A DNA stretch of 44,342 nt, counting the filler, from Jimgerdemannia flammicorona (taxonomy: Eukaryota): the NCBI GenBank assembly GCA_003990765.1. It is 2 parts of 2 records of this genome, joined end to end, with 100 filler letters (N's around TTAATTAATTAA, not from the genome) between each part and the next. Parts side by side here need not be neighbours in the genome. Positions count along the whole stretch, not along the records: positions 1 to 22,122 come from RBNJ01001332.1; 1 more part is not named here. The stretch is one strand, 5' to 3'. Made by a program: the position numbers and the translations under genes. Position 1 is the stretch's first letter, and every line of letters starts with the position of its first letter. Of this stretch, positions 8,051 through 39,510 are shown one piece after another. A model generated the notes under the pieces. It was not told the DNA's origin, did no database searches, and saw nothing but the letters and a program-made list of their open reading frames with translations.

Positions 8051-8888
8051 ATGCCCGCTATCTGCAACCAAGCTACCTGCCACCAAACTGCCCACCATAG
8101 TCAGCCTCTCCCAAGTCAGGTTGACTGTCTCTTTGGATACATCCAGGTTGCTATCCAAGGAAGGAACTGCTGCTCAGAGGCCCTTGACCTCTCCAGCTAG
8201 AACCTAGGATATTATGTTCTCAACCACTGTAAAGTCATCGAAAGAGCCTACCTTACCACCAGCCACCTAGAGATCTGGCATAAATATGAGATTGGCCATC
8301 AACTCCTCCAATGGACAAAGGACCTGCCCATGGACCAAGTCTCTAATTGGACCCACCTGGACAGGAATGAGCAAAGACTTGCCAAGAAGGTCCATCAAAT
8401 CATACACCATACACTCTTTGCAATCCCCAACCTCAACTATGTCCAACTGAATGACTTCCAGAACCTCTCTTTTTTCAAGGTTGACAAACTAGAGACCAAG
8501 GTAGCCCAAAAAGCCAACTTCTGGATCACTCTCAAGTCTACTGACTATAAACCCTACTGGAGCCCCCTCCTAAATGACAACCCAGACCAATGGTTCCAAG
8601 GCCTCTCTGACCTCTTTGAAGAACTGCCCACCTGAATGGATATTCCCAGGCATGAGGACCAAGAACCCTACTTGGATGGCCCCAACCACATCAGATGGAG
8701 AACTCCTACACCAGCACCCATCCCCATACAAGAACCATTTGCAAACCTTATTGACTTCTCCATTCTGGACAGTGAGCCATCAGCAAACTATCCCCCCTGC
8801 CACTAAAGAAGATGGCAACAACCCTGATTCTCCACCTTTTTCTCTCCTGGTTCTCAATTTCCAAATCAACAAGGACATTGATTTCTAA
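8051..8888 (+). pseudogene. Accessory 3' ORF (ORF3) of Gypsy A, unknown function
   Basis: ATG at 8051, in frame with ORF 8330-8635. Two stops and one frameshift, all absent in copy B. Ends at the PPT. Upstream TATAAATA at 7979-7986. Confidence 0.75.
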
Positions 8889-12686: not shown

Positions 12687-13480
12687 TGTAATAGAACGAA
12701 CAGATGGGACGCGACAAGACGAATGATCACGTGACATGGCGATGACGTCATCATACAATCGAGCGCGGCATATGAATAACGAATGATGCGAAACGATGCG
12801 GAAAACGATATCCAGCTTATCCCCAATAATCAGTGCCACAGCAACAGTTGCCACAGCTGCTGATCATTGCCTAGTAATTGAGGTCCTGATCACAAAGATA
12901 TTCTTTACCAAAAACCACCTGACAAAGGTCACGATCACAAACCTCATTATAGTTACCAAATTAGTCACTCATACTTAGTCAGAAATCGTGGACCAACTTG
13001 TATAAATACCCCCCAGTTTCCATCCGAAATAAAGCAGTTTTAGTTCAGTCCTTGATACCAGAATCAAGTTTCCCCTACATACACACATTCCCCTGAGTCT
13101 TAGTAATGACATCTAAGTGACTCTAGTGTTTCTGACTAAACTCCAGAAGCCTAGCTAACTTCTATCAGAACTGAGACCGGTATATAAATCCCCAAAGACT
13201 TAAGTAAACCCATTGAACCTGAATTCTAAGGCGAATTCAGTCTGTGCACAGCAAAGAACAAGATCCTCGAAATAGGGCACAAGAGAAAGACCTTTGAAAC
13301 AGAAGGCAAACCAGAGAAAGACCTTTGAAAGATAAGGCACTGCCACTATAACTACTTTAAGCGAGTGCTTCCTCAAACTGAAGGCTTCTTGGTACACATT
13401 GTATACTAAGTCCCTAAGTAATAGTCCACTTCTCTAATTATCCAAAGGATAAGAGAGGGGTAGAAGTGAGAGTTATTACA
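12687..13480 (+). repeat. 5' LTR of Gypsy B (794 bp)
   Basis: TGTAATA...TATTACA termini. Retains CACGTG and TGACGTCA motifs near its start. TATAAATA at 13001-13008. Confidence 0.97.
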
Positions 13481-13482
13481 AT

Positions 13483-13494
13483 TGGTAGCAGTGG
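13483..13494 (+). other. Primer binding site, initiator-Met-tRNA-like
   Basis: TGGTAGCAGTGG 2 nt after the LTR. TGG-T-AGC fits the A1:U72 acceptor stem of eukaryotic tRNAi-Met. Confidence 0.65.
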
Positions 13495-14369
13495 TTTACT
13501 AGCCAAGAAGGCACCAAAGAACACACTCCTGAAGTTGGAACAAGACCAATCTTGGACAGGAGTAACCCCCAGAACCAACTGTGGATCCTCAAAACAGAGC
13601 CAGAGAAGCCCTTACCATTAGGACCAGATAGTACCAGGAAACCACAGACACAGAGATCTGCCAGCTTGTAATTGACCAGACTTACAGAGATCTATACCAG
13701 GCCTTTAGGACATACCACCCAGGACTTAGGAATATTGTTAGCCACCGTAGGTTCTACAAACTCCTCCAAGGACACATTGGAACCACTAGGACCCCAGAAT
13801 CTACTACTGCAGCCACCCAGGATTTTTTAGATTATATTACACCCTCTGCTGCAAGAGAAGCAGCTGCCGAGTGGATTGTCTCTGACAGGTATCATCATAC
13901 ACCAACCAAGACCTCCCTCTACTACAGGCTAGTTGTATACTACACCTCTGCTATAACTAGGTATAAGAACGAGCAAGCAGACCACCCATCCCCTACTGCT
14001 GAACAAGGAGCAGGTCCATCTACCTAGCCAGGGACTGATATTCTCTTTGAAGGACCTAGTCAGTACAAGGATGCACTATCTCATCAGGGAAGGGAGTCAG
14101 ACGAAGACTCTACAGATTACCAGTCTGATAATAGTCAACGAGGAACAGCAGACCTAGGAATTTACCAAGGGATCATAGGTCAAGAAGATCAGACCCCAGA
14201 ACCAACTCAGCCACCTATACAGCAATTTGGTTTACCCTCTCTCACAGGACTCTTTGACTTAATATCTGGGAACCAAGTAACCCCAAGTCATACAGCACCA
14301 CAACCCCATCAAGCAGAACAATCTTCAGGAGAATCTACCCCAACAGGCCCACTACCACTAGTCAATACA

Positions 14370-17300
14370 ATGGTAGATGTTAACATTGCAGCACTGACCA
14401 CCCAGCTAGCAGCACTAGCAGGGATAGTAGGACAGATTGCTGAACAGAACAAACCAACTAAGACCTTGCAAATTCCAACATTCAGTGGAAAAAACAGTGA
14501 CATCGAAAACTTCATCAATGCAGTTAATACAGGCTACCAAGCAAACCAATGGAATGACAACCAAGTACCTATAGGAATGCTCACCAACAACCAGAACAGC
14601 ACCCTTCAACAGCTGTTTGCCACATCAGCAGCACAAGTAGAAACAGTAGCCACATTCTTCACTGGAATAGCAGCCGAATTCTGGCAAACCTTGGAACAAT
14701 ACTCAGTAATCTGGGAAGCCTGCCCTCAAGTCAATGGACAAGTACCTGGAAACAATAGACCAGGTTGGGATGACTACGAAGCAGGCCCAGGACTCAAGGC
14801 CTTACTACTGATCAAATTCCGAAATGCAGCCTACATATAAGAAACTTGGAACAAACTGTCCCAGATGAAGTTCCACAAGAATGGCAAAGAAGATCTAGAG
14901 ACCTTTGCCACCAGAATGGATGCATATCTCAAAATGGTTGGACTTACCTATCAGGAAAACAATTTAGCCATCAATGGTACCAGAGCTAATCATCTCTTTG
15001 CAGCCCTACCAGACTGGCTCACCCAGAAGATCAAGGAACAAGGTCTTCCTCAAGGATGTCCCCACTACTCATGATGCTTTGCCCAAGTACAAAGAAGAGC
15101 CCACAAAATCCTTGCTGCACAAGCTCCACAAAATCAAGAACACAAGAAGGATAACCAAGATAGAAGAAATCCTACCAGGAGAAATGATCAAAGGAATGAC
15201 CAATGATATGATCAAAGATATGATCAAAGGAACCAGCGAAACCCCAGAGGACCCAGACCTCCCACTGAGGATGAGAAGAAGCAGCTCCATGAAAAAGGAT
15301 TGTACTTCATCTGTAAGAAGGCAGGACACATCTCAGTCAAATGCCCCAAGAAGAGAAACAGATCAGGCGAACCTAGTAACCAGAACATTACTGTCATTGG
15401 AGAAGGTCCAGGAAAGAAGAACCCCAAGAATGTCATCAAAGTATAGAAGATATGGTACAAGGCTACTATCCCCACTAAGGCCCACCCAACTGATGCTGGA
15501 TATGATCTCTACAGCAGCCAAGACCTCACCATCCCACCAAGCACTAATGCTACAGTGTGAACAGGAATTGCAATGCAAGCTCCCAAAGGAACATACATCT
15601 GCCTTGCTGAGCAAAGTAGCCTAGCCAAAGAGTTCAACATTGGGCTAGGCAGAGGAGTAGTTGACCAAGGATTTACTGGTGAAATTCGTGTCATCTTGCA
15701 AAATTTTGGAGATACCTCATTTGAAGTCAAAACAGGCCAAAGGATTGCCCAAGCAATCATTGAAGAAATCCACCAAGATCTCACTATTGAAGAAGTCCCC
15801 AAACTCTCCCAGACAGACCAAGACAAGAAAGGGTTTGGATCTACCAACAAACCTCCCAGTCAAAAGGTCACTACCATGAAGGAAGATGATGAAAACTGGT
15901 ATAAGAGAATTGCAGATGGTTATGCACCATGTGGACAATGCCCTCATTCCATTTGAATGTACTGTATGGAACATGTTGGTGAATGCCATGCATGCCTCTC
16001 CAAAGTTTTCAAAATTCAATCTGAGAAGCACCAAGCTCAACAGACTGAGGAACTCAAACAAGACAACCCTCCTTGTGAAGGATGGGGAGAAACTGACTTC
16101 GAGGAGACTGACAGCAATTGGGACAACAATGAGGATGAAGAGCTCAATACCATCAAGAAGGAGGATAGTTGCATCAAGTTCACAGGCCAAGTCCACAGAA
16201 AAAATGTCAATGTCTTGCTTGATAGTGGTGCTACTGAAAACTATATCAGTACCAAGACTGCTAAGAGGATTGGAGCCTGAAGCAGACCAACTACTAAGAA
16301 AAGAAGTATTACCTTTGGTGATGGAAAGACTGCACCATTGACCAAGATCTGTGAAAACCTTTTGCTCAAGATTGGCAAATATCAAGAGAAGTTGGACTTC
16401 AGCATTGTAGACCTCCCAGAACAAGACATTATCTTAGGAAAAGCCTGGTTGACCCAGCACAACCCAGACATCAACTGGAGAACCAATGAGGTTAACCTGA
16501 CCCATGAAGGCAGGAAGATCACCCTGACACCCCAGGAAGGTACCAACCACCAAGGAATTGAAATCATCTCTGCCATTCAAATAAAGAGACTATCTCGAAA
16601 AAAGGGAAACACCTACTTCATCTGTATAGTACAAGAAGTCACTGAAGCTACAAGTAGCCCAATTTTAACAGAAGCTCAAGAACTGTTTGAAGAATTCCAA
16701 GATGTATTCCAAGATCCTCAAGGACTCCCACCCAAGTGCCAAATCCAACATGGAATTGATCTTATCCCAGGATCTGAACCCCCATATAAGAGTATCTACC
16801 AACTAGCCCAACCTGAGCTCAAGACCCTCAAGGATGAATTGACCAAACTACTAGCCCAAGGATACATTGAACCCAGCCACTCTCCATTTGGAGCCCCCAT
16901 TCTATTTGTCAAGAAGAAGAATGGCTCTCTGCAAATGTGTATTGACTACAGAGCCCTCAACAAGATCACTATCAAGAATCGGTATGCCTTGCCCAGGATT
17001 GATGAGTTGCTATACCAAATCTTCAAGGCCAAGACCTTTTCTCTACTGGATTTGCGAAATGGCTACCACCAGATTCTCATTGATGAGAAGGACATTGAGA
17101 AGACAGCTTTCCAAACATGGTTTGGACACTACCAGTTCCGAGTCATGCCTTTTGGATTGACCAATGCACCAGCAACATTCCAGTATCTGATGAATGACAT
17201 CTTTGGACCACTCCTCAACATCTGTATCCTTGTGTATATTGATGATATACTAATCTACAGTGAGACAGTAGAGCTACACTACACCCATCTCAGACAAGTA

Positions 17301-19561
17301 CTGACCCTCCTGTGAGAATACCAGCTCTATGCCAAAATGAGCAAATACAAGTTCTACCAAGACCAGATTGAATATCTGGGACACATCATCTCTGCTGAAG
17401 GTATCAATGTGGACCCCCGAAAGGTATCAGCCCTTAAGGATATCCCTATCCCTACTACCCTCAAGCTACTCCAGTGCTTTCTGGGTATTGCCGGTTATTA
17501 CTAAAGGTTTATCCAAGGATACTCTGCTATTGTAGCTCCATTAACCAGTCTGGCCCACAAAGGAGTAAACATCAAAGCTGAATGGACCCCCAAATGCACC
17601 CTGGCTATAGACCACCTCAAGAGACTCCTTACTGAGGCCCCAGTACTAATTGCACCTGACCCTATCAGACCATTCACTCTGACTACAGATGCCTCTGATA
17701 TTGCTATTGGAGCAGTACTCAGTCAAGAAGACCACCCAGGGGCCTACCTCTTCCAAAAGCTCAAACCAGCTAAGACCCGGTATACCACCCATGAGAAGGA
17801 ACTCCTGGCTATTGTCACTGCACTCCAGGAATGGCACTATTTCCTCCTAGGACAGCCATTTGTGGCCTACACTGATCACCATGCACTGCGGTATATTCAC
17901 ACACAGCCTATACTGACCCACAGACAAGCCTGCTGGATGGAAATCATTGCCAACTTTGATATGGAAATCAAGTATATCCTAGGCAAAACCAACCGTGTGG
18001 CTGATGGTTTCTCCAGGTACATGGAAGATGAACTTGTCTTCATGGTTGAAGTAATTGGAGACCTTACCCAAATGATCAAGGATGGCTACCAGCAAGACAG
18101 CCCTCTGATGAATTTCCTTCAATTCTGCCAAGACCCAGAGGCTGAGGTTCCAGAACCCATGAGGCAAATGGCCAAGAGATTCACCTACTGTGATGGACTT
18201 ATCTACAGAGACCATGATAGAGTAGTTGTACTCAACAATGATACTCTGCGACTCAAAATCATGCAGGAACTCCATGATACTCCTGCAGCAGGACACTTTG
18301 GTTTTGAAAAGACCTACAATCTCCTCTCAAGAGAGTTCTACTGGCCAAAGATGACCAAGGATATCAAAGACTTTGTGGCCTCATGCAAGATGTGCCAAAG
18401 GTTCAAAAGTGGTAATAAGCTACCAGCAGGACTCCTGCAACCCTTGCCTATCCCGAGTCACAATTGGGACCAGATTGCAATGGACTTCATTGTCCAACTC
18501 CCCAAGACCAAGGCAGGATGGGATGCCATCATAGTATTCATGGACTGCCTAAGTAAACAAGCCCATTTTGTACCCACCAAGACTACTGCTACAGTACTAG
18601 AGATTGCCGAGATTTCCTCAATCAAGTATTCAGGCTATATGGTATGCCTAGCACTATTGTATCTGACTAAGACACCAAGTTCACAAGTAACTTCTGGAAG
18701 GCATTTTTCTCCCTCCATGGAACCAAGCTGAAGTTCTCTACTGCCTACTACCCTCAGACTGACAGTCAAACCGAGAGAACAAACAGGACTCTCAAATAGA
18801 TGCTTAGCATCTTCTGCTGTTACAAGCAAAATGATTGGGACAAGTACCTAGCTCATGCTGAGTTTGCCTATAACAACAGTCAGCAAATCTCCACAAAGAA
18901 GACTTCATTCTTCCTGAACCATGGTCAACACTCAAGGACCCCAAGTACTACCATGAAATCAGCAGTCCCAGCAGCCCAAGATCTGGCCGAGACCATTTCT
19001 GACCTTACCCAAATGACAAGAGATGCTCTCATAGAAGCACAAGACTACCAGACCAAGTACACGAACTTGAAGCAAAGAGAAGCCTCCTACAATATTGGTG
19101 ACAAAGTTATGCTTAGAACAGACCACCTCCACTCAGACACCCTGGCACAACAACCAGCCAAGAAACTCCATGCTAGAAGAATTGGACCATATAAGATTGT
19201 GGAAAAAATCAGCAAAGTAAACTACAAGTTGCAACTTCCCCACAATATCCGAGTACACCCAGTATTCCATATCAGTCAATTGGTGGACTACCATGAGAAC
19301 CCATTCCCCAAGCATACAGTTCTACCACCACTCCCAATTAGGATCAATGATCATGAGGAATTCGAAATTGAGGAAGTACTTGACCACAAGGTCCGCAAAT
19401 ATCCCAAAACAGTCAAGTGCTTTTTCCTGATCAAGTGGAAGGGTTACCCCACCCATGATGCCACCTGGGAAAAAGAAGAAGTCCTGAATAATACATGCGA
19501 AGCCCTCCAGGACTACATGGAAATACTCACCCCCCAGCAAAGGAAGGAACTACAGCTCTAA
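14370..19561 (+). pseudogene. gag-pol: Gypsy B single-frame gag-pol: capsid, CCHC knuckle, dUTPase, Cys cluster, protease, RT, RNase H, integrase, chromodomain
   Basis: ORF pieces starting at 14370, 14865, 15573, 15957, 16338 and 17862 share one frame, with one frameshift near 18615. Motifs: IPTFSG, (C>Y)FICKKAGHISVKC, LLDSGATENYI, YIDD, TDASD, GHFG..C..CQ, DFIVQLP, GPY, FEIEEVLDH..KWKGYP..ATWE. Confidence 0.95.
15435..15845 (+). pseudogene. dut: Trimeric-type dUTPase domain between nucleocapsid and protease (Gypsy B)
   Basis: All five motifs in order: AGYDL, QSSLA (decayed RSGLA), GVVDQGFTGEI, GQRIAQ, KKGFGST. Confidence 0.93.
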
Positions 19562-20136
19562 GCATAGGAGCACACAGCGAGCAGAAGGGTACCACATATT
19601 TTTAACTGGAAACATATAATATCAAACATTACAGAGAAAAAGGAACATTATGGATAACTAACAAGAAGATACCTGAGCAAAAGAACAATCTAGTACAGTA
19701 TAGCAAAACACATTTGAACAACTCCATTTCACGCCATCTGTGTCATCTCCACTGGATGATGACAGACACTTCATGTAAAACTTAGGAAAGCCGACAATGT
19801 TGAAACCAGTCTAAGTCCATCCACGTGACAGATATTGTTACTAGGAATTGCCTCGGATTATAAAAAAAGTCTATTTCCAAGAGGTTCAAACCCCCAGCCA
19901 TGACAATGGGAGCCCTCACCCTAGACAAAGATGGCCAGTCCTCGCAAATGCACCAACCAGACAAAAAAAAAGTGGACCAAGACCTATTAACCCTGTGTAA
20001 CCACAACTACGGGTGACGAGATCTTTAAAATCAGAATTTTCTCATGTGACCAGCATATGCTCCACTTACAGCAACAGGTCATGCATTTGGTCAGAAAGTG
20101 TGACCAAAGGAAGGTCACATCAGACAGGTGAATAAG

Positions 20137-20144
20137 TATAAATA
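20137..20144 (+). promoter_or_regulatory. Putative internal TATA box for the accessory ORF
   Basis: GTATAAATACCC, the same core as the LTR TATA, ~65 nt before ATG 20208. Conserved in copy A (7979). Confidence 0.5.
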
Positions 20145-20207
20145 CCCAAGGCAAGAATACCCCACAACTCTCATTCCCCTCTTCTCACAAAGAAAAGACA
20201 GACAAGA

Positions 20208-21038
20208 ATGCCTGCCACCTGCCGCCAAACTGCCCGCCATAGTCAGCCCCTTCCAAGCCAGGTTGACCACCTCTTTGGACACATCCAGATTGCTATCCAA
20301 GGAAGGAACTGCCGCTCAGAGGCTCTTAATCTCTCCAGCCCAGACCTAGGACAGTATGTCCTTGACTGCCATGAAATTATTGAAATGGCCTACCTCGCTA
20401 CCAGCCACCTAGAAATCTGGTATGAATATGAAATCAGTAACCAGCTTCTCCAACATACAAGTGGCCTACCCACAGACCAGGTCTCTGACTGGACTCACCT
20501 AGACAGGCACGAGCAAAGACTTGCCAAAAAGGTCCATCAAATCATATGCCATACACCCTTCATGATCCCCAACCTCAACTACATATAACTGAAGGACTTC
20601 CAGAACCTCTCTTTCCCTGAGGTCGATGCCCTAGAAGTCAAGGTCACCCAAGAAGCCAACTCCTGGATTGCCCTCAAGTCTACTGACTGCGAACCCTACT
20701 GGAGCCCTCTCCTGAATGACAACCCTGACCAATGGCTCCAAGGCCTCTCTGACCTCTTTGAAGGACCACCTATCCGAATGGATATTCCCAGGCATGAAGA
20801 TCAAGAGCCCTACTTGGATGGCCCCAACCGCATCAGATGGAGAACCCCTACACTAGCACCTATTCTAATGCAAGAACCATTTGCAGACCTCATTGACTTC
20901 TCCATCCTGGATGGTGAGCCATCTGCAACCACCACCCCCTCTGCCTCTGAAGAAGATGGTAATAACCCTGAGGAGGATTCCCCACCTTTCTCTCCCCTGG
21001 TTCTCAATTTCTCAATCAACAAGGATGTTGATTTCTAA
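20208..21038 (+). pseudogene. Accessory 3' ORF (ORF3, 276 codons) of Gypsy B, unknown function
   Basis: ORFs 20208-20588 and 20778-21038 are in one frame, broken only by TAA 20586 (CAA in copy A). The stop codon overlaps the PPT. Confidence 0.8.
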
Positions 21039-21049
21039 GGAGAGAAGGA
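21037..21049 (+). other. Polypurine tract, Gypsy B
   Basis: AAGGAGAGAAGGA directly before the 3' LTR. Confidence 0.9.
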
Positions 21050-21842
21050 TGTAATAGAATGAACAGATGGGACATGACAAGATGAACGATCACATGACCC
21101 GGCGATGATGTCATCATATGATCGAGTGCAGCATATGAATAACGAATAATGCAAAATGATGCGGAAAATGATATCCAGCTTATCCCCAATAATTGGCACC
21201 ACAGCAATAGTTACCACAGCTGCTAATCATTGTCTAATAATTGAGGTCCTGATCATAAAGATATTCTTTACCAAAAACCATCTGACAAAGGTCGTGATCA
21301 CAAACCTCATTATAGTTACCAAATTAGTCACTCATACTTAGTCAGAAATTGCAGATCAACTTGTATAAATACCCCCCAGTTTCCATCTGAAATAAAGCAG
21401 TTTTAGTTCAGTCCTTGATATAAGAATCAAGTTCCCCCCACACACACACATTCCCCTGAGTCTTAGTAATGACATCTAAGTGACTCTAGTGTTTCTGACT
21501 AAACTCCAAAAGCCTAGCTAACTTCTACCAGAACTGAGACCGGTATATAAATCCCCAAAGACTTAAGTAAACCCATTGAACCTGAATTCCAAGGCGAATT
21601 CAGTCTGTGTATAGCAAAGAACAAGAGCCTCAAAATAGGGCACAAGAGAAAGACCTTTGAAACAGAAGGCAAACCAGAGAAAGACCTTGAAAGATAAGGC
21701 ACTGCCGCTACAACTACTTTAAGCAAGTGCTTCCTCAAACTGAAGGCTTCTTGGTACACATTGTGTACTAAGTCCCTAAGTAATAGTCCACTTCCCTAAT
21801 TATCCAAAGGATAAGAGAGGGGTAGAAGTGAGAGTTATTACA
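21050..21842 (+). repeat. 3' LTR of Gypsy B (793 bp)
   Basis: Direct repeat of 12687-13480. Differences are mostly CpG transitions. Confidence 0.97.
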
Positions 21843-22222: not shown

Positions 22223-25200
22223 AGATGAGTTCTTCTGGAGGTCCATATCTGAGTGTGAGTCTATGGAGGAGGCCTACAATGGTTAAGGCATCTGCAATTT
22301 CCATTGGAAAAGCCTCGGGCCACTTGGTCAGATGTTCTACAAATACAAGAATGTATTTGTTTCTTCTTGGTGTAACTGGTAGAGGTCCAATTACATCTAC
22401 TCCCCATCTTTGAAAGATGTGAGTGGGTGGGGGAATCGGTTGCAGAGGGGCTTGATAGTTCTTCTTTCCTTGGTACTTCTGGCAGATGTCACATTTCTGG
22501 ATGATGTCCCGAACTTGAGTTCTGAGGTGGGGCCAATGTTGATGTTGTTTTCGAATCCTGTCTTCTATGCTTGTCTGTCCTTGGTGGGCTTTCTGATATT
22601 CTTTTCAGATAAGATCTTCTTGTGTATTGATAGTCTGAGGAGCTTCCTTTAGGGTGTGGTTCCTCGAGACACCCTTCCTCTGATTCATTTGGGCTGGCGG
22701 GAAAGTACATCAACATTGTTGTGGGCTTTCTCTACTTTGTGAATGATGGTGATTTTGTAATCCTGAAGGATAAGGATCCAGCGGGCTAGAATTCCAGTAG
22801 GTTCCTTGTGGTTGAATAGCCATTTGAGGGCTGCATGGTCTGTGATCAGAGTGAACCTTTTTCTGATGAGGTAATGCTTGAACAGGGTGACTGCCCATAT
22901 GACTGCAAGGCATTCCAGTTTGGTGCTACCATAGTTCATCTGCTGCTGGTTGGTAGCCCTGCTTGCATAAGCTATCACATGGTACTGTTGGTCAGGTCCT
23001 TCTTGGGCTAGAACTGCTCCTAGGCCATCTTTAGAAGCATCTGTATACAAGATGAATGGCTTCTGTAGATTGGGGTGTACAAGAATTAGTGCTATAGTCA
23101 TATGGTTCTTGAGTTCTCTGAAGGCTTTTTCCTGTGATTCTGTCCATTTGAATGGCACTCCTTTCTTGAGAAGGGTTTGGATTGGGGCAGCAATTTGGGC
23201 AAAGTCTTTGATAAACCTTCTGTAGTAAGATACTAGCATCAAGAATGATAGTGTTTCCTTTAGAGTCTTGGGTACCAGCCAATTGTTGATCTTCTTGGTT
23301 TTCTTTGGGTCTGCATGAGTTCCTTCTTTTGAGACCATGAATCTAAGGAATTCGAGTTTCTGTTTTCCAAAGTAGCATTTCTTTGCATTCAGTCTCAAGT
23401 GATTCTTGCAGGTGAGCTTGAAGAATTCCTCTAGGTGGTACAGGTGTTCTTTGAAATTTGCTGAATAGATGTTGGAATCATTCATGTATACAATCAGACA
23501 GTAGTGGATCAAGGGGCATAGACTGAATTCATCATCCTCTGGAAGGTGGGGGGTACATTGCAAAGTCCAAAGGACATTCAGAGATATTCAAACAGTTTTT
23601 CTAGAGCAAGGAAGGCTGTCTTTTGAATGTCCTTGGGGTCCATCAGAATCTCATGGAATCTCACAAAGAGGTCCATACTGCTGAAATATCTGGCATCTTG
23701 TAACTGGTCCAAAAGGTCATCGATTCTGGGCAAAGGATAAGCATCCTTTTCAGTGACTGAGTTGAGTTTTCTGTAATCCATGCAGAGTCTCCATCCTCCT
23801 TTCTTTGGTACAATAAGTATAGGGCTGGCCCAGGGGCTGGTAGAGGGTTGGATGACTCCATTGTCTAAGAGTTCTTGAATGTGCTCCTTTTCAAATGTTT
23901 TCAAGTGATGGGGTATTCTATAGGGTTTCTGCCGGGTAGGTGTTGCACTTCCTGTATTTATGCTGTGGTGATATGATGGATTGTATGGCAGGTTGCCATA
24001 ATCAGTGGTGAAGATATCTTGATATTTGTTGAGAAGTCCTACTAGTTGTTGCTGTTGTTCAGGTGTCAATTCTTCTCCAATGTTGGTGGAAGGCTTCACT
24101 GTCTCCTGGGTCGCAGAGGGGCCTTTCCTTTCTTCTGGGACCTTTTGCCGTTTCCTGATAGGTTTAGTTCATAAACTTCTCTATGAGTTTGATTGAGAAA
24201 AGGCACCAGATGTCCTATGATGGTTCCTTTTGGCAGGATGATGATCTCCCAACTTTGGTTGATTGCTTGGGAGTGTACTGGGTTCATTTTGTCAGGGAAT
24301 GTGTGTCCCTCTATGTCCAGGTGTGGGATATCTTTCTTGGGTTCAAAGAAAAGGTTCCTGGGGTCGGGTGGTGCAAATATTTCAAAGGTGGTCTGTTCTC
24401 CAGGCTCCAGGATGAGATTCTTGTGTAGTCTGACTGGTTGCCAGTATACTTGCTGGGGAATATTTCTCTTGAGGTGGTTGACTTGAAGGAGATGTACCTC
24501 TTTCATGTCTGAACTTCCAAATCCCTTAGCTTGTCTTGTTCCTTCAGTTAGTTCAGAGACTTCCTGTAACTGTGGGGTCTTGACCTTCATGAAGACTGCT
24601 TGGGCAATCTTCTGTCCTCTAATGATTCGGTGCCATTCTGCACTGCTATTGTGTAGGATAACCTTGATTTCGCCTGTATATCCAGGGTCAATAGTTCCTC
24701 CTTCTATAGTTATTCCTTGTCTGGCAAGTCCAGACCTTGAGGTCAGTTGAATATAAGCTCCTTGAGGCGGCTGCATGGCTAATCCAGTTCTGACCATGAA
24801 GGTCTTTCCAGGCTTGATGGATTCATCCTCTAGGCTGTGAAGATCATATCCTACATCCTCTGAGTGGGCTTTAGTCCGGGGTTTGGCCTTGGGGTGCAGC
24901 AGGGCATACTGGGCAATGTCCTTGCTGAGTTCAGGCTTTCCTAGGGCTGAAGCTCCACCAGCAGAAAGCCTCCAAGCTCTAAGGTTGAGGTATGGCCATC
25001 TGGCTCCAGTAGAGGGGTCTCAGAGGTAATTGATTCCCCTCCTTCCTGTAGGGTCAAGGGCTTCCATGAAGTTGGTGGCATCTTCTGCCCATCCTTGGCA
25101 GGTTACATGTCTGATGAGAGCTAGGTTGTCTTCTCCCAAATTATAGATCTTGAGAGTTCTTTTTCCAGGCTTCTTGGTCTGCCTTTTTCGAATCTGGCTT

Positions 25201-28099
25201 TTTCAAATCTGGCTTCAGTTGTCTCCTTTCTTCAAGGTGTGCACTGCAACATCATGGCTGAGGTGAATCTTCTGATGTCTGCAGTCTCGGAAATCAGGGT
25301 GTCTCCCATGGTTGCAATATCCCATTGCTTGGAAATGATATTTCCGGCTATTTATCTCTTGTTGTCTGGGGAATTGGTATCCATCTTGGTCATAGGTTGG
25401 AGGAAGAGTAGACAAGGGGAATATTTCTGTTTGGGTAAAGAAGTCTTATCCCCTAAATCGACTTTGTAATCTTGTGGTGACTTCTTGGAAGGTGGTAGAC
25501 TGTGCAAGAGTAGTTGGGGGTTCTGGTCTCTGGGGTCTCTGTCTTTCTTGTTGATCCAACAGATGACACTGATAGCAGTAGTCTCAGGGAGAATGGAAGA
25601 CCATTTGATGTGAACATCTTCCTAGCTGGAAAGCTTTCTCTTAGTGGGTTTCTTTCTTGCGGATAATGGTGATGGTACTGGGTCCTTCCTCTGTATTCCA
25701 GGGATCATTGTCTTCTAGTAGTGTCCAGCAAGGGTCATCCCAGGGGATCATTTCAGGGACTTCTTCTTCATTGGGTGCTTCTTGTTCAGGAACTTCTTGG
25801 TCAGAAGTTTCTTCTTCCTCAGATGATTCTTGACCCCAAATTGCTTATACCTCTGCAGCTTCGGTTGCAGGTGTTTCTGGAACATATCTGCATTTCTTCT
25901 TCTTTCTTCTGCATTCTGGGCAGGCTGCGCCAGGCAATTTCCTTGTTCCCATGATCTTGGAGGAGTGCTTGGGACACTTGTGTCTCTTGAGGCATGTGGG
26001 GCATCCTTTGGCTTCTCCTGCAATGGCTCCAATGGTGATGGGGATGGTGTTCTTAGCCCACACATTGTCTTCTGGTCTGTCATCCACCAGGTTAATTCGA
26101 GGATTGAGTCTGGGATCATTTCCATCTTCAGATTCTTCTTCTTCTTCTGTGGTAGATTCTTCACTACTGGCATACTCTTCCTAAATAATAACCTTCTTTT
26201 CCTTCTTTGATTGCTCATAGCTGGTCACCTTAACCCTATACTTCTTGTCTCGGTAGTCAAACTTGAGTACTTGTTGGCCAATATCAACAACTGCATTCAT
26301 TTCCTTCATCCAGTTGGTGCCAAGAATCATATCATAGGTGACAGCTTCGGTGACAACAGCTTTGGGGATGGAGAACTGAATGTGTCCAAGGGAGATAGTG
26401 ATATTTCGTACTTCTCCGAGGGGTTGAGTTCGGGCTCCATCTGCTACTATGATGCTGAGGTTGGATGGTCCATCAATGGGCCATTGGAGGGTGTCCAGGA
26501 ATCGTTTGGCAATGACACAGACAGCTGCTCCTGTATCTATAAGGATTTTTGCTTTTTGTCCTCCAATGTCTCTATGTAAGTAAGTGCTGACATGTCTTTC
26601 AGCTGCTTGGACAGGGATGGAGGCTGGTTCTTGCTGTGGGATTAGAACTTGGCCAGTGCTAGACCTTGTGGTTCTCAGCAATTTGTTTTGAACTCCAGCT
26701 GGTGTCAATTACAAGAACTGCAGGAGAGAAACTTCCATCTTGGCTTCTTGAATCTTCTGCCAGGCTTCATTGTAAATGTCTCTAGGTATGGTCCTTGGAG
26801 TGTACTTCTTCTTGGACTTTGGAGCAGCAGGTTCCCATTCTTCTTGTTCCATTTCTTCATCTTCTGGTGGCAATTCATTTGTCTCAGGCACAAAGGGTGA
26901 GGGGGTTTGGGGAGGTGTTTCAACTTGTTCCTCCTCATGTTCTTCATCTTCTTCTTGAACAATTCTCCTGCTGATGTTCCTGGATGGTCTTCCCACAGGT
27001 CTCTTTCTTTTTTCTGCTGGGTAGACTGTCTTTCGGGTGGTAACCTTGGTAGGATACAAGTCTAGATCACTATAGTCTTCACTGTTGCTTGCTTCCTCGA
27101 AATCTTCAACAGGGTAGGCTTCAGTCTTCTTGTACTGAGTGTCACTCCTTCAGTTTGGTGGTTCTGAGTCCCTTTGGTCACTTCTTTTGTTGTCACATTC
27201 AGTGGCATAGTGTCCAAATTGTCCACAGTGGAAGCATTGGACTTGGGCTCTGTCTTGAACAGGGTACCTTCTTTCTTCTTGCTGGTAATTTCTGTTGTCT
27301 CTTGGTGGATAACCTTGGCTCCTCTGTGGTGGGTACCCTCTGTTGTTTTAGTAGTCCCGATTTTTGCATATATGGTGAGTTTTTCAATCTATCCCACCAA
27401 TCAGTCTAACTTGGAGCTAAGATCTTGAATTTCACTTCTGTCCTTCTTTCCTTCCTTGGCTGGCCTTCTTTCTTTGGATCTTTCTTATCCTTGAAGGAGT
27501 CCTTGCAGGGCCTTGACCAGGATATCTTCTTTATCTTCCTTTTTGTCATGATCACTCCAGGTGGTTCCTTACCTGACATTAAAGAATCCTTGGGCTGCAT
27601 CTACTTGCTCTTCAGACCTTCTGATGCCTAAGGTGCAGACATGCTGGGCAATATTCAGGGGAATTCCATTCATGAAGGTCATTGGGCCTATAATGTCTTG
27701 GTTGGTGGCATTGAACCTAGCAGAATGCATCCTCTTCTGGATTCTTGTGAAGAAGGCTCTGGGTGATTCTCCAAGATTCATCTTCATTCTCAAGATAGAT
27801 TCCTGAGCCTTGTGGCAGGTTTCATTTCCTGCATACTTTTCGATGAGCCAGTGGACCATGGACTCATATTCTAGCTCATCAGAGAATGCTGCTTGTATCT
27901 GTCTTGCCAGTTCCGAATCTGGGTTGTTTGCTGTTCAGTGGAAAATTCCTCTGGCTGGTTCTCTAAGCTGGGCTTTGTAGATGGCAATTTTTCTTTCATC
28001 TGAGAGGTTTCTCAAGGCTGCAATTCCTTCGATTCCATCAAGGAATTCTCTGGGGTCTTCCTCCAGGTATCCTGCAAAGGTTGGCAATGAGGTGGCCAT
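22223..28099 (-). pseudogene. gag-pol: Gypsy C gag-pol, disrupted
   Basis: MATSLPTFAGYLEEDPREFLD, CFHCGQFGHYATEC, ILIDTGAAVCVI, SPWASP..WRLCMDYRKLN..YPLPRID, YMND (YTDD in D), TDASKDGLGAVL, CDICQ..WGVDVIGPLP. Confidence 0.92.
24510..24908 (-). pseudogene. dut: dUTPase domain between protease and RT (Gypsy C)
   Basis: VGYDL, SRSGLA, GTIDPGYTGEI, GQKIAQ, RQAKGFGSS. Confidence 0.95.
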
Positions 28100-28636
28100 T
28101 TCGTTGTCACTTTCTTCTGATTCTGGTTCAGGTTTGGATTCTGATTCTGATTCACTTTCTGAACTGTCACTAGAGATAAGAGTGCTTGGATATCTTGAAG
28201 ATGGTGTTCTGGTCCTTGGGTGAGGTGGAATAGGCCTAGGTATCCTTGTAGGAGCTACTTCTGGTTCTGCAAGAGGTTGTGGTAAGGGTTCTATTGGTGA
28301 GATTGGTGGGACTAGTATGGGGTGTCTGGCTGTGAAATGTTGGGTCGAGGTAATAAGGTCTTCTAGTTCTTGTGTAAGTTCTCCAAAAACTCCAGCAGGA
28401 CTGTCTGTATTATCTGGTTGATCTGGTTGGAGATTTTGGGCTGTACTGCCTCCTGCTTCTGGTTGGAATCCTTCTGATGCTGGGTAGTTGGCAAGTCTTG
28501 AGGTGATTACTTCTCTTCCTGTCCAAATGCTAGTGATGACTAGTTCTCCTGTAGTGGCAGAGGTTGGTGTTGTGTTTAATGTATCCAGTTTGACTGTGGG
28601 TTCTTGTGAGCTGAAAAGTCATGTTGATCTGAAATC

Positions 28637-28654
28637 TTCCCAGTTGAGCCTCCA
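28637..28654 (-). other. Primer binding site, tRNA-Pro-like (Gypsy C)
   Basis: TGGAGGCTCAACTGGGAA 2 nt after the LTR. D has TGGGGCTCAACTGAG. Both resemble Pro-type PBS TGGGGGCTC..CCGGGA after transitions. Confidence 0.55.
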
Positions 28655-28656
28655 AA

Positions 28657-30269
28657 TGTAACATGCCAGCTCAATAGAGGCAAATTACAAGGTTTGGGGG
28701 TTGATGTAGTTTGGCTTGAGCCCACAGTTACTTTGTCAAAAAGCAACACAATGTTCTAAGATTCCTGAGGTCCTTGGTGTTTACTGGTATAATAGTCAAG
28801 AGCTGGATATCTGCAAGCGATTCTGGCGATTTCCTTATTGGGACAGTTCTCTGGATGTAGTGGTGGTTTATGTGAACAGATTTCCTTCTTGGGTCAACTG
28901 GGAATGGCACAATTTGTGTGTAGTGCAAGTGGCTTCCTTCTTGAGTAATGGGTGATTTCTGTGTAGCACAACGATCTCCTTGTATGTGACAGTCTGGCAA
29001 TTTAGCAGTTCTTCTTATGCAATTACTGTGTGATGATCTTGTGTAGCACAACGATCTCTGTATAGCGCAGTGGGTTCCTTATGTGGATGTTCTGATAATT
29101 CGGTGGATAACTCAATTTGGCTCACTGGGAATCGTATGGTATGGATTCTTCCTAGGCTCACTGGGAATAACGAATAACTCAGATGTCGCAGGAGGCGTGT
29201 AATTTGATAACTCAGATAACTCGGGTGGTGCAGATTCTTCCTGAATCGGCAGGCATCTGGGAAATAACTCAGATGGCACAGATCCTTCCTGAATCAGTGG
29301 TTTCTTGAGGACAGTGGCTTAACTGGGAATTAACTCGGATGGCATGGATTCTTCCTGAATTGGCGGAGTTCTTCTGGGAATGTAGCGGATAACTCGAAAA
29401 TGGCAGATGGCATGGATTCTTCCTGAATCGGCAGCTTTAACTGAGAATACGATAGCACAGATCCTTCTAAATCAGCAGCTTCAACTGGGAATACAATGGT
29501 GCGGATTCTCCCTGAATTGGCAGCTTCGACTGGGAAATGGGATGGCAGCTTAGAAAGGGTCTCTTGGCAAAGTTGTGTTAATGACTGGCTTCGTTTGCGT
29601 GAATGGATTACTGCGAAGTTGTGTCAGAAACTGGCTGGAGCAAGGCAGCTTTCTAATGCAGATAACTTGGAAATGGTGGCTTATTCCTTAAGTGGCGGGT
29701 TACTCAAAGGTGGTGAAGTTCTCCTTGAACTTAGGTGGCAAATCTTCAGGCTTATCTGGCAAGCAAACCAAAAAATGAACTCATTCTTTGTATTGGAATG
29801 TGGACTGGAGTGGAAAGGGGAAATAAGCTCACAATCTCATAACAGTGGCTATAGAGTTCCTCTCGAAGTGTGGTAGGCAGACTTGTCTTTTGCTTCAATT
29901 TCAGACTTTTCAGACTGAGGTTTTATTCACTCTCGCCTCTGGGGTAATTTATACAAGTTGGTTGCTATCTGGTTGCTATGTGGCTAACTATAGATTTGCT
30001 ATCTTCAGTAATGTTTGGATGTATCCTCTGGGTACAGGTGTGTCCACAGGACATGAGTGTGTCCATAGGACATGAGTGTGTCTGCCGGACATAAGTGTGT
30101 CCTCAGGACACAGGTAAACAATCCTGATCTGGTGTCTTGGCTAATTATAAGTGTGGTGGGCATAAGTAACTATGATATACTGAAAGTCACATTATATTAA
30201 GTAAGTATGCTAATTGTTCATGTCATCTGGCTAAGTTATAATTCAGGTGCTACATTTTAGTCTATCACA
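28657..30269 (-). repeat. 5' LTR of Gypsy C (~1613 bp) with internal repeat arrays
   Basis: TGTGATAG...GTTACA termini on the minus strand. Homologous to the D LTRs. TATA at ~29947-29953. Confidence 0.85.
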
Positions 30270-30970: not shown

Positions 30971-32845
30971 TATAATGAGCAAAAGAATTGTACTGCCAAA
31001 ATCATAAATTAGCCATATATTATATCTAGTGCACTAAGCAATCAAGACTATTTTACTGCACCAATCTGTATATTTAGCCAGAAATACCAGAAACATTATG
31101 TTTATCTGTACCCTTAAGGTATACTGTACCCTCAAGATACACAATACCCTCAAGATATACTGTACTCTCAAGGAACACTTATCATAGTTAGCAAGCTATA
31201 GTTAGCAATATAGTAACGAGATAGCAACTAACTTCTATAAATTACCCCAGAGATAAGAGTGAATAAACCTCAGTCTGAAATTGAATCTAAAGCAATAGCA
31301 TTCCTTTTCTATTCTAGTCCACTTTCTGATACAAAGCTGATTTTGCTGCCAAGTTCAAGTAAAGAACTTTACCATCTTTGGAATTATTGGTATACTTGCC
31401 AGACTAAGCCTGATGAACCCGAGTTTGCTACCAAGTTCATGGAAGAACTTTACTGCCTTTTGAAGAACCCACTACTTAAGGAATAAGTTATACTATTGGT
31501 ATACTTATCAGACTAAGCCTGAAGAACTGATTTGCTGATTTTGCTGCCAAGTTTGAGTGAAGAACTTGACCACCTTTGGTATTATTAGTATGCTTGCCAG
31601 ATAAAGCCTGAAGAATCTAAGTTTGCCACCAAGTTTAAGAAAGAACTTCACTGTCTTTTGAAGAACCCATCACTTAAGGAATAAGTCACACTATTGATAT
31701 ACTTGTCAGACTAAGCCAGAAGAGAATAAGTCTGAAAGTTCAAAATTGAATCTAAAAAGGAAAAGACAAGTCTGTCTATTACACTTTGATAGATATGCCT
31801 GCTAAAAGCCACTTAATCTAGAAAGGATTGTAATACTTAGGAGAAATACTCACTCTAAAGTCACTACTAGGAGATTGTGAACATTAGTCCTCTTTTTCTA
31901 CTTCAGTTCACTTTTTAAAATAAAGTTTTGGTTCACTTGCCAGATAATTCTGAAGATTTGCTACCTAAGTTCAAGTGAAGAACTTTGCCACCTTTTGAAG
32001 AGAAACCCACCATTCTCAAGTTATCTATATTCACAGAGAACCTCACTGATTCAGAAAGAATCTGTGATGTTCAAGTTGTTTATATTCTCAGTTAAAGCCA
32101 CCAATTCAGGAAGAATCCATGTCATCTGAGTTATCTATACCATCCAAGTAATTTCCCAGTTAAAGCTACTACTTTCAAGAAGCCTGCCAACTCAGAAAGA
32201 ATCCATGTTATCTGAGTTATCCATGCCATCCAAGTTATTTCCCAGTTAAAGCTACCACTTTCAAGAAGCCTGCCAACTTAGGAAGAATCTGCACCACCTA
32301 AGTATTATTCTCAGAAGCCCACCAATTTAGGAGGAATCTGTGACATCTGAGTTACCTGAGTTATCTGAATTATCTGTGACATATTCATTATTTCCAGTGA
32401 GCCTAAGTTATCAAGCCAGTATAATTCCCAGTAAGGAGAATCCATACTGAACCAAGTTATCTGCCAAATATGCATAAGGAATATCACCAAATCATCATGC
32501 TATACAAAAGATCATCATGTAGAAATTATATACTTTTGGAAATTGCTGCTACTTAAGAAGGAAACCACTAAATTGTCAGATCGTCCTGCATCAGGAATCT
32601 CCTCATGCTAAATATGAAATTCTGTCAATTCCCAGTTGATCTAAGAAGGAAACCCATTCACACATCCAGAGAACCATCTCAATAAGGAATCCTGATGAAA
32701 TCGACCATTGTATCCAGAACTTGACTATTATACCACTAAACACCAAGAATATTTTATTACTTTTAACAAAGTAACTAGAGGCTGAAGCCCAACCACATCA
32801 ATCTCCAACCTTGTAATTTGCCTCCATTAAGCCAGGCACATTACA
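30971..32845 (+). repeat. 5' LTR of Gypsy D (~1875 bp)
   Basis: T(A)TAATGAGC...CATTACA followed by TTTGGGGCTC (PBS at 32848). Contains a ~190-bp tandem duplication at ~31337-31712. Confidence 0.9.
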
Positions 32846-39470: not shown

Positions 39471-39510
39471 ATGATTGTCTAAGGGCAGACCATCCTTTAA
39501 TAGGAGCTGA

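What the first reader, a model, noticed from the sequence alone, without database searches (positions are those of the whole stretch)
20208..21038. Uncharacterised accessory ORF in the env position, apparently shared by two different Gypsy families
Seen: A (8051-8888) and B carry a ~276-codon sense ORF between chromodomain and PPT. Their stops do not coincide, and two indels (15 nt and 6 nt) preserve frame. Family C/D has a cryptic ORF at the same position (38958-39470). The cores align with near-identical spacing: A YEIGHQL-x15-THL-x7-AKKVHQI-x6-AI-x7-LNDFQNL versus D YAIGEQL-x14-TDL-x7-ADRLYTI-x6-AL-x6-LNDIQNI, and both end in acidic tails. No signal peptide or transmembrane segment is visible, so it is not Env. 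Inference: a small helical domain kept or exchanged across LTR lineages with different LTR, PBS and domain order. It may be a DNA-binding transactivator or an anti-silencing factor.
Basis: partly seen in the sequence, partly recalled or inferred. Interest (0 to 1): 0.82.

Follow-up and report, generated by a model that had tools for sequence, protein, structure and literature searches.

The report
Conserved third gene in Gypsy retrotransposons
Two decayed copies of a Gypsy-type jumping gene carry a real, selected extra gene after integrase that matches no known protein family and seems distantly related to an extra gene in a second Gypsy family nearby.

Summary
The ORF is real. Copy B (20208-21038) has 276 codons with one in-frame TAA. 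It is a separate cistron: 646 nt of stop-rich spacer follow the chromodomain, and its stop codon abuts the polypurine tract.

It is a selected gene. Intact relatives of 200-342 aa exist at 29-62% identity. dN/dS is 0.20 against an intact metagenome copy and 0.24 between A and B, against 0.80 and 1.18 in the other two frames.

Pfam, PDB sequences, the ESM Atlas and Foldseek gave no match. Both AlphaFold models were poor.

The ORF in element D (38958-39470) also has intact 169-183 aa relatives. However, D lacks the RNase H C-terminal half and integrase, so "same position" holds only loosely.

Homology between the two families is moderately supported. hhalign alone is weak (P 0.023).

Function is untested. 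The proteins are acidic (pI 4.4-4.9), helical, and end in an acidic-hydrophobic tail. A TATAAA lies 71-80 nt upstream of the ATG. The best guess is a trans-acting regulatory adaptor made from an internal promoter.

The parts
12687..21842 (+). Element B. Complete but decayed chromodomain Ty3/Gypsy element of 9156 bp, flanked by the 5-bp target duplication CAACT (12682-12686 and 21843-21847).
   Evidence: LTR pair found. LTR ends TGTAATA...TTATTACA and the CAACT duplication read. The two LTRs are 93.4% identical over 793 nt. Pfam domain order is dUTPase, protease, RT, RNase H, integrase, SH3, chromodomain.
19562..20207 (+). Spacer between the end of pol and the accessory ORF. It has stops in all three frames and holds TATAAATA at 20137, 71 nt before the ATG, with no ATG in between.
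   Evidence: Three-frame translation. TATAAA positions. No intervening ATG. The spacer cannot be aligned to the upstream region of L001 (53% identity with gaps), so conservation is confined to the ORF.
20208..21038 (+). Accessory ORF, copy B. 276 codons, one in-frame TAA at 20586-20588, terminal TAA at 21036-21038.
   Evidence: Relatives found. dN/dS 0.20 against L001 and 0.24 against A. No Pfam family.
21039..21049 (+). Polypurine tract GGAGAGAAGGA directly after the stop codon. The 3' LTR starts at 21050.
   Evidence: Sequence. L001 shows the same layout of stop, purine run and TGTAATA.
8051..8888 (+). Accessory ORF, copy A, in a 5'-truncated element at about 4874-9677. It has TAG at 8198, TGA at 8633, a 2-nt frameshifting deletion at 8787, a 15-nt insertion at 8057 and a 6-nt deletion at 8826, all relative to B.
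   Evidence: The A/B family HMM made without the window's own sequence matches it at 1.2e-69.
38958..39470 (+). Accessory ORF of element D. 171 codons with 5 internal stops. It is the last ORF before the 3' LTR, which starts at about 39702.
   Evidence: Intact relatives of 169-183 aa at 56-78% alignment identity to P0008; BLASTP values are lower: 62-67% to the window's own D ORF, 54-73% to P0008.
31175..41333 (+). Element D, of the same family as C. It has gag, protease, dUTPase, RT and half of RNase H. It lacks the rest of RNase H and integrase, so it is non-autonomous.
   Evidence: LTR repeats. Pfam hits. BLASTN similarity to C ends at D 38848.
22223..30200 (-). Element C, of the same family as D. 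It has gag with CCHC, protease, dUTPase, RT, RNase H and the start of integrase. It is cut by the N runs, so its post-integrase region cannot be seen.
   Evidence: Pfam hits. N runs at 22123-22166 and 22179-22222.

Best explanation
SHOWN: 20208-21038 is a decayed copy of a genuine third gene of a chromodomain Ty3/Gypsy family that carries its dUTPase before the protease. The gene is a separate cistron. Stops in all frames separate it from pol, and it ends exactly at the polypurine tract. In intact relatives it encodes an acidic protein of about 200-340 aa. The protein has a predicted helical core and a conserved mid-region, and it ends in a disordered acidic tail with short hydrophobic motifs. 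The gene has been kept by purifying selection.

LIKELY (about 0.75): its helical core is distantly homologous to the 171-aa ORF that ends element D of a second dUTPase-bearing Gypsy family. Inheritance from a common ancestral element followed by fast divergence explains this most simply.

INFERRED (about 0.35): the gene is transcribed as its own subgenomic mRNA from an internal TATA promoter in the spacer. The protein then acts in trans as a regulatory adaptor. The helical core would bind an element or host partner. The acidic-hydrophobic tail would recruit host machinery, either to raise element expression or to blunt silencing.
For: Real gene:
- An exhaustive phmmer search of 1.84 billion representatives found 5 relatives at E <= 0.001, from 1.5e-78 to 7.8e-05, with 29-62% identity and lengths of 138-342 aa.
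- One metagenome contig (L001) holds an intact 291-codon copy. Its stop, purine run and TGTAATA LTR start are laid out as in B.

Selection:
- B against L001 over 270 codons: dN 0.30, dS 1.47, ratio 0.20.
- A against B: 0.24 in the ORF frame, 0.80 and 1.18 in the other two frames.
- Differences by codon position are 42, 28 and 72.
- 0 of 500 spectrum-preserving permutations gave a ratio as low as observed.
- pol controls give 0.20-0.33.

Separate cistron: stops lie upstream in every frame in B, A and L001.

Cross-family homology:
- The C/D-family HMM against the A/B family proteins gave 4.4e-05 for the L001 ORF and 1e-04 for P0004, with Z set to 1.
- 0 of 2000 residue shuffles reach either real score.
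- In the reverse direction, 3 of 2000 shuffles reach the score for the window's D ORF.
- Among 245 window ORF segments used as decoys, the best scores 2.6 bits. A/B-family sequences score 9.5, 8.3, 7.9 and 6.3 bits.
- hhalign rose from P 0.071 to P 0.023 when both alignments were enlarged.
- 1 of 217 column shuffles reached the real hhalign score.
- MAFFT on the pooled sequences finds the same register on its own.

Internal promoter:
- TATAAA lies at -71 in B, -72 in A and -80 in L001. The window holds 24 TATAAA in 44342 nt.
- No ATG lies between the TATA and the start codon in any of the three.

Protein features: pI 4.4-4.9 with strongly negative C-terminal blocks, and mainly helical low-confidence models.
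Against: - hhalign probability is only 2% and its P value 0.023.
- Most single cross-family HMM scores are weak. The shuffle tests for the remaining targets give 18-45 of 2000.
- The window's own B ORF scores only 0.3 bits against the C/D HMM.
- Both AlphaFold models are poor, with mean pLDDT 40.6 and 50.6, so no fold comparison is possible.
- At nucleotide level the ORF is the most diverged part between A and B: 82.7% identity, against 85.8% for the spacer, 89.9% for pol and 89.4% for the LTR.
- The TATA argument was made after seeing the data, and the -60 to -100 window was chosen afterwards.
- An overall acidic charge speaks against direct nucleic-acid binding. By my inspection only, no classical nuclear localisation signal is visible.
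- No transcript evidence could be obtained.
- Both window copies are dead.
- The host organism is unknown.
Confidence: 0.55

Rival explanations
1. The two accessory ORFs are unrelated. Each family gained its own small helical, acidic protein, and the motif match reflects shared amphipathic-helix composition.
For: hhalign gives P 0.023 and probability 2%. 1 of 217 column shuffles equals the real score. The B ORF scores 0.3 bits against the C/D HMM. The part downstream of the core can be aligned in two different ways. A second, non-collinear similarity also exists, which shows how easily such motifs recur.
Against: 0 of 2000 shuffles reach the real HMM scores for two A/B members, and 3 of 2000 in the reverse direction. 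The reversed sequences that returned a score gave -0.8 to -2.0 bits. None of the 245 decoy ORFs comes near. Three programs give the same register. The order of predicted helices is congruent, though in low-confidence models.
Confidence: 0.25
2. The protein acts after transcription, as a Rev- or CERV-like factor. It would bind the element's unspliced RNA and hand it to the export or packaging machinery through leucine-rich, export-signal-like motifs in the tail.
For: CERV is an accessory protein of the Ty3/Gypsy-type element Cer1. It is made from a spliced mRNA and is needed for genomic RNA export (PMC10309623, abstract read). The conserved tail motifs of spaced L, I and F residues in an acidic context resemble export signals. 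That resemblance is my recall, not a test.
Against: The acidic pI of 4.4-4.9, and (by my reading only) no arginine-rich stretch, argue against RNA binding. No branch-point-like CTRAY motif lies in 20040-20207, and the leader holds only one weak donor-like site. Fungal introns are usually short (my general knowledge), so an element with no spliced RNA would have little need for an export factor.
Confidence: 0.15
3. The protein is a particle or integration cofactor. It would bind Gag, integrase or chromatin (acidic tails can bind histones) and act in cis within the particle rather than as a regulator.
For: The non-autonomous D lineage keeps the ORF. Three database relatives (P0012, P0013, P0015) carry the same sequence upstream of the ORF as D does. 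This would fit a function each RNA must supply for itself. The tail is acidic.
Against: There is no similarity to gag or any other part of the elements. No binding evidence of any kind exists. Retention in D could simply reflect young copies.
Confidence: 0.12
4. It is a captured host gene fragment or a non-functional frame kept open by an overlapping cis-acting nucleic-acid signal.
For: The last codons overlap the region next to the polypurine tract. That stretch is conserved at nucleotide level between B and L001.
Against: The selection signal is specific to the ORF frame: 0.24 against 0.80 and 1.18. Synonymous sites are near saturation against L001 while the protein is conserved. No longer or differently placed host paralogue appeared among the 5 hits of the exhaustive search. 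The one relative with DNA context (L001) lies next to an LTR start.
Confidence: 0.05

Closest known systems
Additional ORFs (aORFs) of LTR retrotransposons. Examples are the "add. ORF" of unknown function drawn for fungal Gypsy elements by Novikova et al. 2010 (PMC2864245) and the ORFs of the pol-3'LTR region in plant Retand elements (PMC11963269).
   Same: An extra coding region between pol and the 3' LTR, inside an element that is otherwise a standard Gypsy, with no known function. The same 2010 paper reports dUTPase at varying places in basidiomycete Gypsy elements: at the N-terminus of Pol, or between protease and RT. That matches families A/B and C/D here (section 5 read).
   Different: The Retand ORFs are antisense and carry the TRP28 domain (abstract read). 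This ORF is sense-strand and has no Pfam match. I could not check whether the 2010 "add. ORF" is this protein. The paper's Additional file 1 is an old .DOC that cannot be read here.
CERV of the C. elegans Ty3/Gypsy-type element Cer1
   Same: A novel, non-Env accessory protein encoded by an LTR retrotransposon and needed for the element's own expression (PMC10309623, abstract read).
   Different: CERV comes from a spliced mRNA and acts on RNA export. Here an internal TATA is the better lead, and no splice signals were seen. No CERV sequence was fetched, so sequence relatedness was not tested directly. No Pfam family links them.
Foamy-virus Tas (Bel1), made from an internal promoter
   Same: By recall: an accessory gene near the 3' LTR of about 300 codons, transcribed from an internal promoter upstream of it, with an acidic C-terminal activation region. 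Here: TATAAA 71-80 nt upstream of the ATG and an acidic tail.
   Different: Tas binds DNA directly (recall). These proteins are acidic throughout and have no detectable DNA-binding domain. Promoter activity is untested. No foamy-virus sequence was compared.
Env-like third ORFs of errantiviruses and Athila-type elements
   Same: The position downstream of pol.
   Different: No membrane span is visible: the highest 19-residue hydropathy mean is 1.36. No signal peptide is visible by inspection of the N-termini. The size is 170-340 aa, the protein is acidic, and no Env family matches.

Membership tests
LTR-retrotransposon additional ORF (class defined by position, not by sequence) | Lies inside an LTR-bounded element, between pol and the 3' LTR | tested here: met
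   B has LTRs at 12687-13480 and 21050-21842 and a CAACT target duplication. The chromodomain match lies in the frame that ends at 19561. The ORF is 20208-21038.
LTR-retrotransposon additional ORF (class defined by position, not by sequence) | Separate reading frame, not a continuation of pol | tested here: met
   Stops lie in all three frames of the spacer in A, B and L001.
LTR-retrotransposon additional ORF (class defined by position, not by sequence) | Protein-level conservation among element copies or lineages | tested here: met
   dN/dS is 0.20 and 0.24, with frame and permutation controls. There are 5 relatives down to 29% identity.
Retroviral or errantiviral Env | Signal peptide and at least one membrane-spanning segment | tested here: not met
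   The highest 19-residue Kyte-Doolittle mean is 0.59-1.36 in 10 family proteins, and all are acidic. This is a simple hydropathy scan, not a dedicated predictor.
Any curated protein family (Pfam-A) or solved structure | Significant sequence match | tested here: not met
   No Pfam family at E <= 0.01 for the two halves of B. Nothing better than E 0.062, below the curated cut-offs, for 8 intact relatives. In PDB sequences, 0 hits for the A/B profile and a best E of 0.47 for the C/D profile.
One family with the C/D-element ORF (38958-39470) | Significant profile-profile similarity | tested here: inconclusive
   hhalign gives P 0.023 and probability 2%. 1 of 217 column shuffles reaches the real score, and reversed controls score 15.4 and 13.2 against 22.3.
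One family with the C/D-element ORF (38958-39470) | Family HMM finds members of the other family above decoys, in one register | tested here: met
   0 of 2000 shuffles for L001 and for P0004, and 3 of 2000 for the D ORF in the reverse direction. The top 4 non-self hits among 263 sequences are A/B-family, and the best of the 245 decoys scores 2.6 bits.
One family with the C/D-element ORF (38958-39470) | Same fold | not testable with these tools
   Mean pLDDT is 40.6 and 50.6. Foldseek on the better model found nothing at E <= 0.001.
Tas-like transactivator made from an internal promoter | Own promoter upstream of the accessory gene | tested here: inconclusive
   TATAAA lies at -71, -72 and -80 with no intervening ATG. 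No RNA data are available.
Tas-like transactivator made from an internal promoter | DNA-binding domain plus activation domain | not testable with these tools
   Only composition can be seen: an acidic tail and an overall pI of 4.4-4.9. No DNA-binding family matches.
CERV/Rev-like export factor | Made from a spliced subgenomic mRNA and binds unspliced element RNA | not testable with these tools
   No RNA run could be listed. A motif scan found no branch-like site and one weak donor-like site.

The most novel reading that the evidence does not exclude
Divergent dUTPase-bearing Gypsy lineages (RT only 42% identical) share an ancient, fast-evolving regulatory gene. It would be transcribed from an internal promoter, as foamy-virus tas is. 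Its acidic-tailed product would switch on the element's LTR or disarm host silencing. That would make these elements "complex retrotransposons" with a virus-like early regulatory gene. The gene is kept even by a non-autonomous lineage that has lost RNase H and integrase.
Probability: 0.2. Interest if true: 0.8.

Novelty: new variant of a known kind. Interest (0 to 1): 0.55.

Why it matters
Extra ORFs in LTR retrotransposons are often noted but rarely shown to be selected genes, and almost none has a known function. This one has clear purifying selection. It has intact natural relatives and a likely homologue in a second family. It also offers a testable expression mechanism, the TATA box in the spacer. 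If it is a regulator or a counter-silencing factor, it would show how such elements come to fill TE-dense regions like this window. It would also extend the accessory-gene logic of complex retroviruses to retrotransposons. At minimum, it defines an unnamed protein family that genome annotators now call "hypothetical protein".

Tried and rejected
- Whole genome: none is held for this window. All-copies analysis, copy ages and a check of autonomous C-type elements were therefore impossible.
- The listing of cluster members and earlier findings were closed.
- RNA evidence: no RNA holder was listed for 12687-21842. No reads could be laid.
- Viral-contig scans with both family alignments: none of 38 and none of 40 pattern matches encodes a relative.
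- ESM Atlas, two calls: only unnamed or inconsistent clusters. Scores were 0.88 or less for P0003 and 0.93 or less for the L001 core, with fewer than 170 shared features. I rejected these as leads.
- Structure: both AlphaFold jobs gave low confidence. Foldseek against the PDB on the better model gave a best E of 1.4, which is meaningless. VIA searches and complex prediction were not used, because the models were too poor and I make no binding claim.
- A profile of the A/B family against the six-frame window finds only A and B. Within the window alone the cross-family link cannot be detected by that route.
- A vs B dN/dS as a lone test: plain NG86 is biased by the 88% transitions. A spectrum-preserving null gives 0.55, so I relied on the frame and permutation controls.
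- Splicing signals: nothing convincing.
They used these terms:
  - dUTPase / LTR retrotransposon / fungi / Gypsy
  - additional ORF / fungal / integrase / unknown function
  - chromovirus / basidiomycete / additional open reading frame
  - accessory ORF / internal promoter / subgenomic
  - dUTPase / retrotransposon / Pucciniales
  None returned a paper whose listed title or abstract start describes this protein. I read passages or sections of two of them (PMC2864245, PMC11105155) and outlines with abstracts of two (PMC10309623, PMC11963269). The table of element structures in PMC2864245 (S1.DOC) could not be read and may bear on novelty.
- Considered and rejected:
  - a decayed env: no membrane span
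  - a gag duplicate: no HMM hit in gag
  - a pol extension: stops in every frame

Full report
**1. Setting**

The window is a nest of retroelements.
- Element B (12687-21842, + strand) is complete but decayed.
  - Its LTRs are 794 and 793 nt long, 93.4% identical, and end in TGTAATA...TTATTACA.
  - It is flanked by a 5-bp CAACT duplication.
- Pfam places the domains of B in this order: dUTPase (1.8e-18), protease, RT (3.5e-28), RNase H (6.1e-31), integrase zinc domain (2.5e-24), Tf2-type SH3 (2.2e-20) and chromodomain (7.8e-12). The last pol frame ends at 19561.
- Element A (about 4874-9677) is a 5'-truncated copy of the same family.
- Elements C (minus strand, 22223 to about 30200) and D (31175-41333) belong to a second family. 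In that family dUTPase lies between protease and RT.
- Between the two families RT is 42% identical over 180 aa, dUTPase 40% and integrase 31%.
- Both dUTPase positions were described for basidiomycete Gypsy elements by Novikova et al. 2010 (PMC2864245, section 5 read). I take this as a hint that the host is a fungus. No tool result names the host.

**2. The observation**

B 20208-21038:
- It is 276 codons plus a stop, with one in-frame TAA at 20586-20588.
- It is preceded by 646 nt that carry stops in all frames.
- Its stop codon is followed at once by the purine run 21039-21049 and by the LTR.

A 8051-8888:
- It is the same ORF at 82.7% nucleotide identity.
- It has in-frame TAG at 8198 and TGA at 8633.
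- It differs from B by three indels, not two: 15 nt, 6 nt and a 2-nt deletion at 8787. The last shifts the frame of the final 33 codons.

D 38958-39470 is a 171-codon frame with five internal stops.

No protein of either family has a membrane-span-like stretch, and all are acidic.

**3. It is a real, selected gene**

- The k-mer-seeded search gave one relative among 270 candidates (P0002, 62% identity).
- The exhaustive phmmer search of 1.84 billion representatives gave five relatives at E <= 0.001. They are P0002 to P0006, with E from 1.5e-78 to 7.8e-05, 29-62% identity and lengths of 138-342 aa.
- One metagenome contig (L001, 1535 nt; 1 confirmed of 155 pattern matches) carries an intact 291-codon copy.
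  - Its stop is followed by a purine run and a TGTAATA LTR start, as in B.
  - Its 375 nt upstream cannot be aligned to B's spacer (53% identity with gaps). Conservation is therefore confined to the ORF and the LTR edge.
- B against L001 over 270 codons gives dN 0.30, dS 1.47 and a ratio of 0.20.
- A against B gives 0.24. The pol controls give 0.20-0.33.
- 88% of A-B differences are transitions, so I added controls:
  - The other two frames give 0.80 and 1.18.
  - Differences fall 42, 28 and 72 on codon positions 1, 2 and 3.
  - A spectrum-preserving permutation null averages 0.55, and 0 of 500 permutations are as low as 0.24.
- A result that cuts the other way: at nucleotide level the ORF is the most diverged region between A and B. 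Identity is 82.7%, against 85.8% for the spacer, 89.9% for pol and 89.4% for the LTR. The gene evolves fast, but within its frame.

**4. The second family**

- The D ORF has intact relatives. Three of 24 candidates matched the single sequence. Eleven of 1180 candidates matched the profile.
- Full-length members are 169-183 aa, and members range from 54 to 100% identity to P0008.
- D is not a full element.
  - BLASTN similarity to C stops at D 38848 / C 22994.
  - The RNase H C-half and all of integrase are missing.
- The N-terminal extensions of three database proteins (P0012, P0013, P0015) continue into the same sequence that precedes the ORF in D. This suggests that the deletion form is an old lineage that has spread. 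It is a suggestion only, since I could not see their DNA.
- C's own post-integrase region is lost in the N runs 22123-22222. Whether autonomous members carry the ORF is therefore unknown.

**5. Are the two ORFs related?**

Profile-profile comparison:
- hhalign of the first small alignments gave P 0.071.
- After enlarging both alignments it gave P 0.023, score 22.3 and probability 2%.
- 1 of 217 column-shuffled controls reached that score. Reversed alignments scored 15.4 and 13.2.

HMM against sequence, with Z set to 1:
- The C/D HMM gave 4.4e-05 for L001 and 1e-04 for P0004. It gave 0.0035 for P0003 and 0.029 for the B ORF.
- L001 aligned over HMM positions 61-142 and residues 77-156.
- In the reverse direction, the A/B HMM gave 9.8e-05 for the D ORF and 0.0013 to 0.051 for the others.

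Residue shuffles that reached the real scores:
- 0 of 2000 for L001.
- 0 of 2000 for P0004.
- 3 of 2000 for the D ORF.
- 18 to 45 of 2000 for the five weaker pairs.

Decoy test: against 245 ORF segments of the window (24267 residues), the four best non-self hits of the C/D HMM are all A/B-family, at 9.5, 8.3, 7.9 and 6.3 bits. The best decoy scores 2.6 bits.

Pooled alignment: MAFFT on the pooled sequences again aligns the Y-x-I-G...L and A-[KD]-[KR] columns.

The low-confidence models show the same order of helices: one long helix, then several short ones.

I put homology at about 0.75. The families share RT at 42% and dUTPase at 40% identity, so common descent with fast divergence is enough. 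Nothing points to exchange.

**6. What the protein looks like**

- No Pfam family matches.
- No PDB sequence matches.
- The Atlas gave no consistent cluster.
- Foldseek gave nothing.
- Conserved blocks of the A/B family:
  - a helical core around E-I-W-H-E-Y-E-I and A-K-K-x-H-Q
  - a mid-region around D-N-P-D-Q-W-L-Q-G-L and F-E-G-P-P-I
  - an acidic tail with D-L-I-x-F and V-L-N-F motifs
- pI is 4.4-4.9, with net charge down to -16 per 40-residue block near the C-terminus.

**7. How it may work (inferred)**

- TATAAA lies 71, 72 and 80 nt upstream of the ATG in B, A and L001. It occurs only 24 times in the 44342-nt window.
- The ORF's ATG is the first ATG after the TATA in all three.
- No branch-point-like motif lies in 20040-20207. 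Very long introns are unusual in fungi (my general knowledge).
- I therefore favour an internal promoter that gives a subgenomic mRNA. The protein would act as a trans-acting adaptor whose acidic-hydrophobic tail recruits host machinery.
- This is conjecture, at about 0.35. Rivals are an export factor like CERV of Cer1 (PMC10309623, abstract), a particle or integration cofactor, and a captured fragment.
- No RNA run could be listed, so expression is untested.

**8. Comparison and novelty**

- Extra ORFs between pol and the 3' LTR are a known kind.
  - The 2010 survey draws an "add. ORF" of unknown function in fungal elements. I read the figure legend only. Its table could not be read.
  - Plant Retand elements carry antisense TRP28 ORFs (abstract).
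- What is new here:
  - a sense-strand protein family with no described domain
  - clear selection
  - a probable counterpart in a second family
  - a candidate promoter of its own
- I rate it a new variant of a known kind, with interest 0.55.

Noticed in passing
window 1-4873 and 9678-12686, minus strand: Non-LTR (LINE-type) retrotransposon copies flank A and B. They have RVT_1 matches (1.4e-16 and 6.6e-10) and an AP-endonuclease domain (3e-08). These stretches show an extreme GC skew of -0.36 to -0.50 on the + strand.
   Followed up: partly
window 15426-15956 (B) and about 24507-24923 (C); also D: Both Gypsy families carry a dUTPase domain but at different places: before the protease in A/B, and between protease and RT in C/D. 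The two dUTPases are 40% identical.
   Followed up: partly
window 38849-38957 (D): D joins half an RNase H to the accessory ORF, with integrase missing. Three database proteins (P0012, P0013, P0015; 50-84% identical to P0008 in the A3 alignment) extend upstream into the same sequence. This suggests an old non-autonomous lineage that has spread and still keeps the ORF.
   Followed up: partly
window 22123-22166 and 22179-22222: Two runs of 44 N (assembly gaps) cut element C inside integrase, so its 3' end and any accessory ORF cannot be seen.
   Followed up: no
A versus B, all regions: 79-92% of differences between A and B are transitions: 238 of 259 in pol, 125 of 142 in the ORF, 77 of 86 in the spacer and 63 of 80 in the LTR. 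This fits cytosine-deamination-type decay. No strand or context analysis was done.
   Followed up: no
D ORF residues 2-22 versus A/B family residues of about 170-190: There is a second similarity that is not collinear with the main one. The N-terminal D-Q-x-L-Q-x-L...F-Q-S-L-P-I stretch of the C/D proteins resembles the D-Q-W-L-Q-G-L...F-E-G-P-P-I block late in the A/B proteins. hhalign gives P 0.0032, on a query that includes upstream residues. HMMER domain E-values are 0.014-0.11. It could be an internal repeat, a permutation or chance.
   Followed up: partly
window 31336-31723 and 39863-40250: Two adjacent copies of a roughly 190-nt unit, spaced 198 nt apart, lie inside each LTR of element D (family D3).
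   Followed up: no
window 30274-30573 and 41334-41633: A direct repeat (80% identity) lies upstream of D's 5' LTR and downstream of its 3' LTR. This is out of order for a simple LTR pair (family D13). Unexplained.
   Followed up: no
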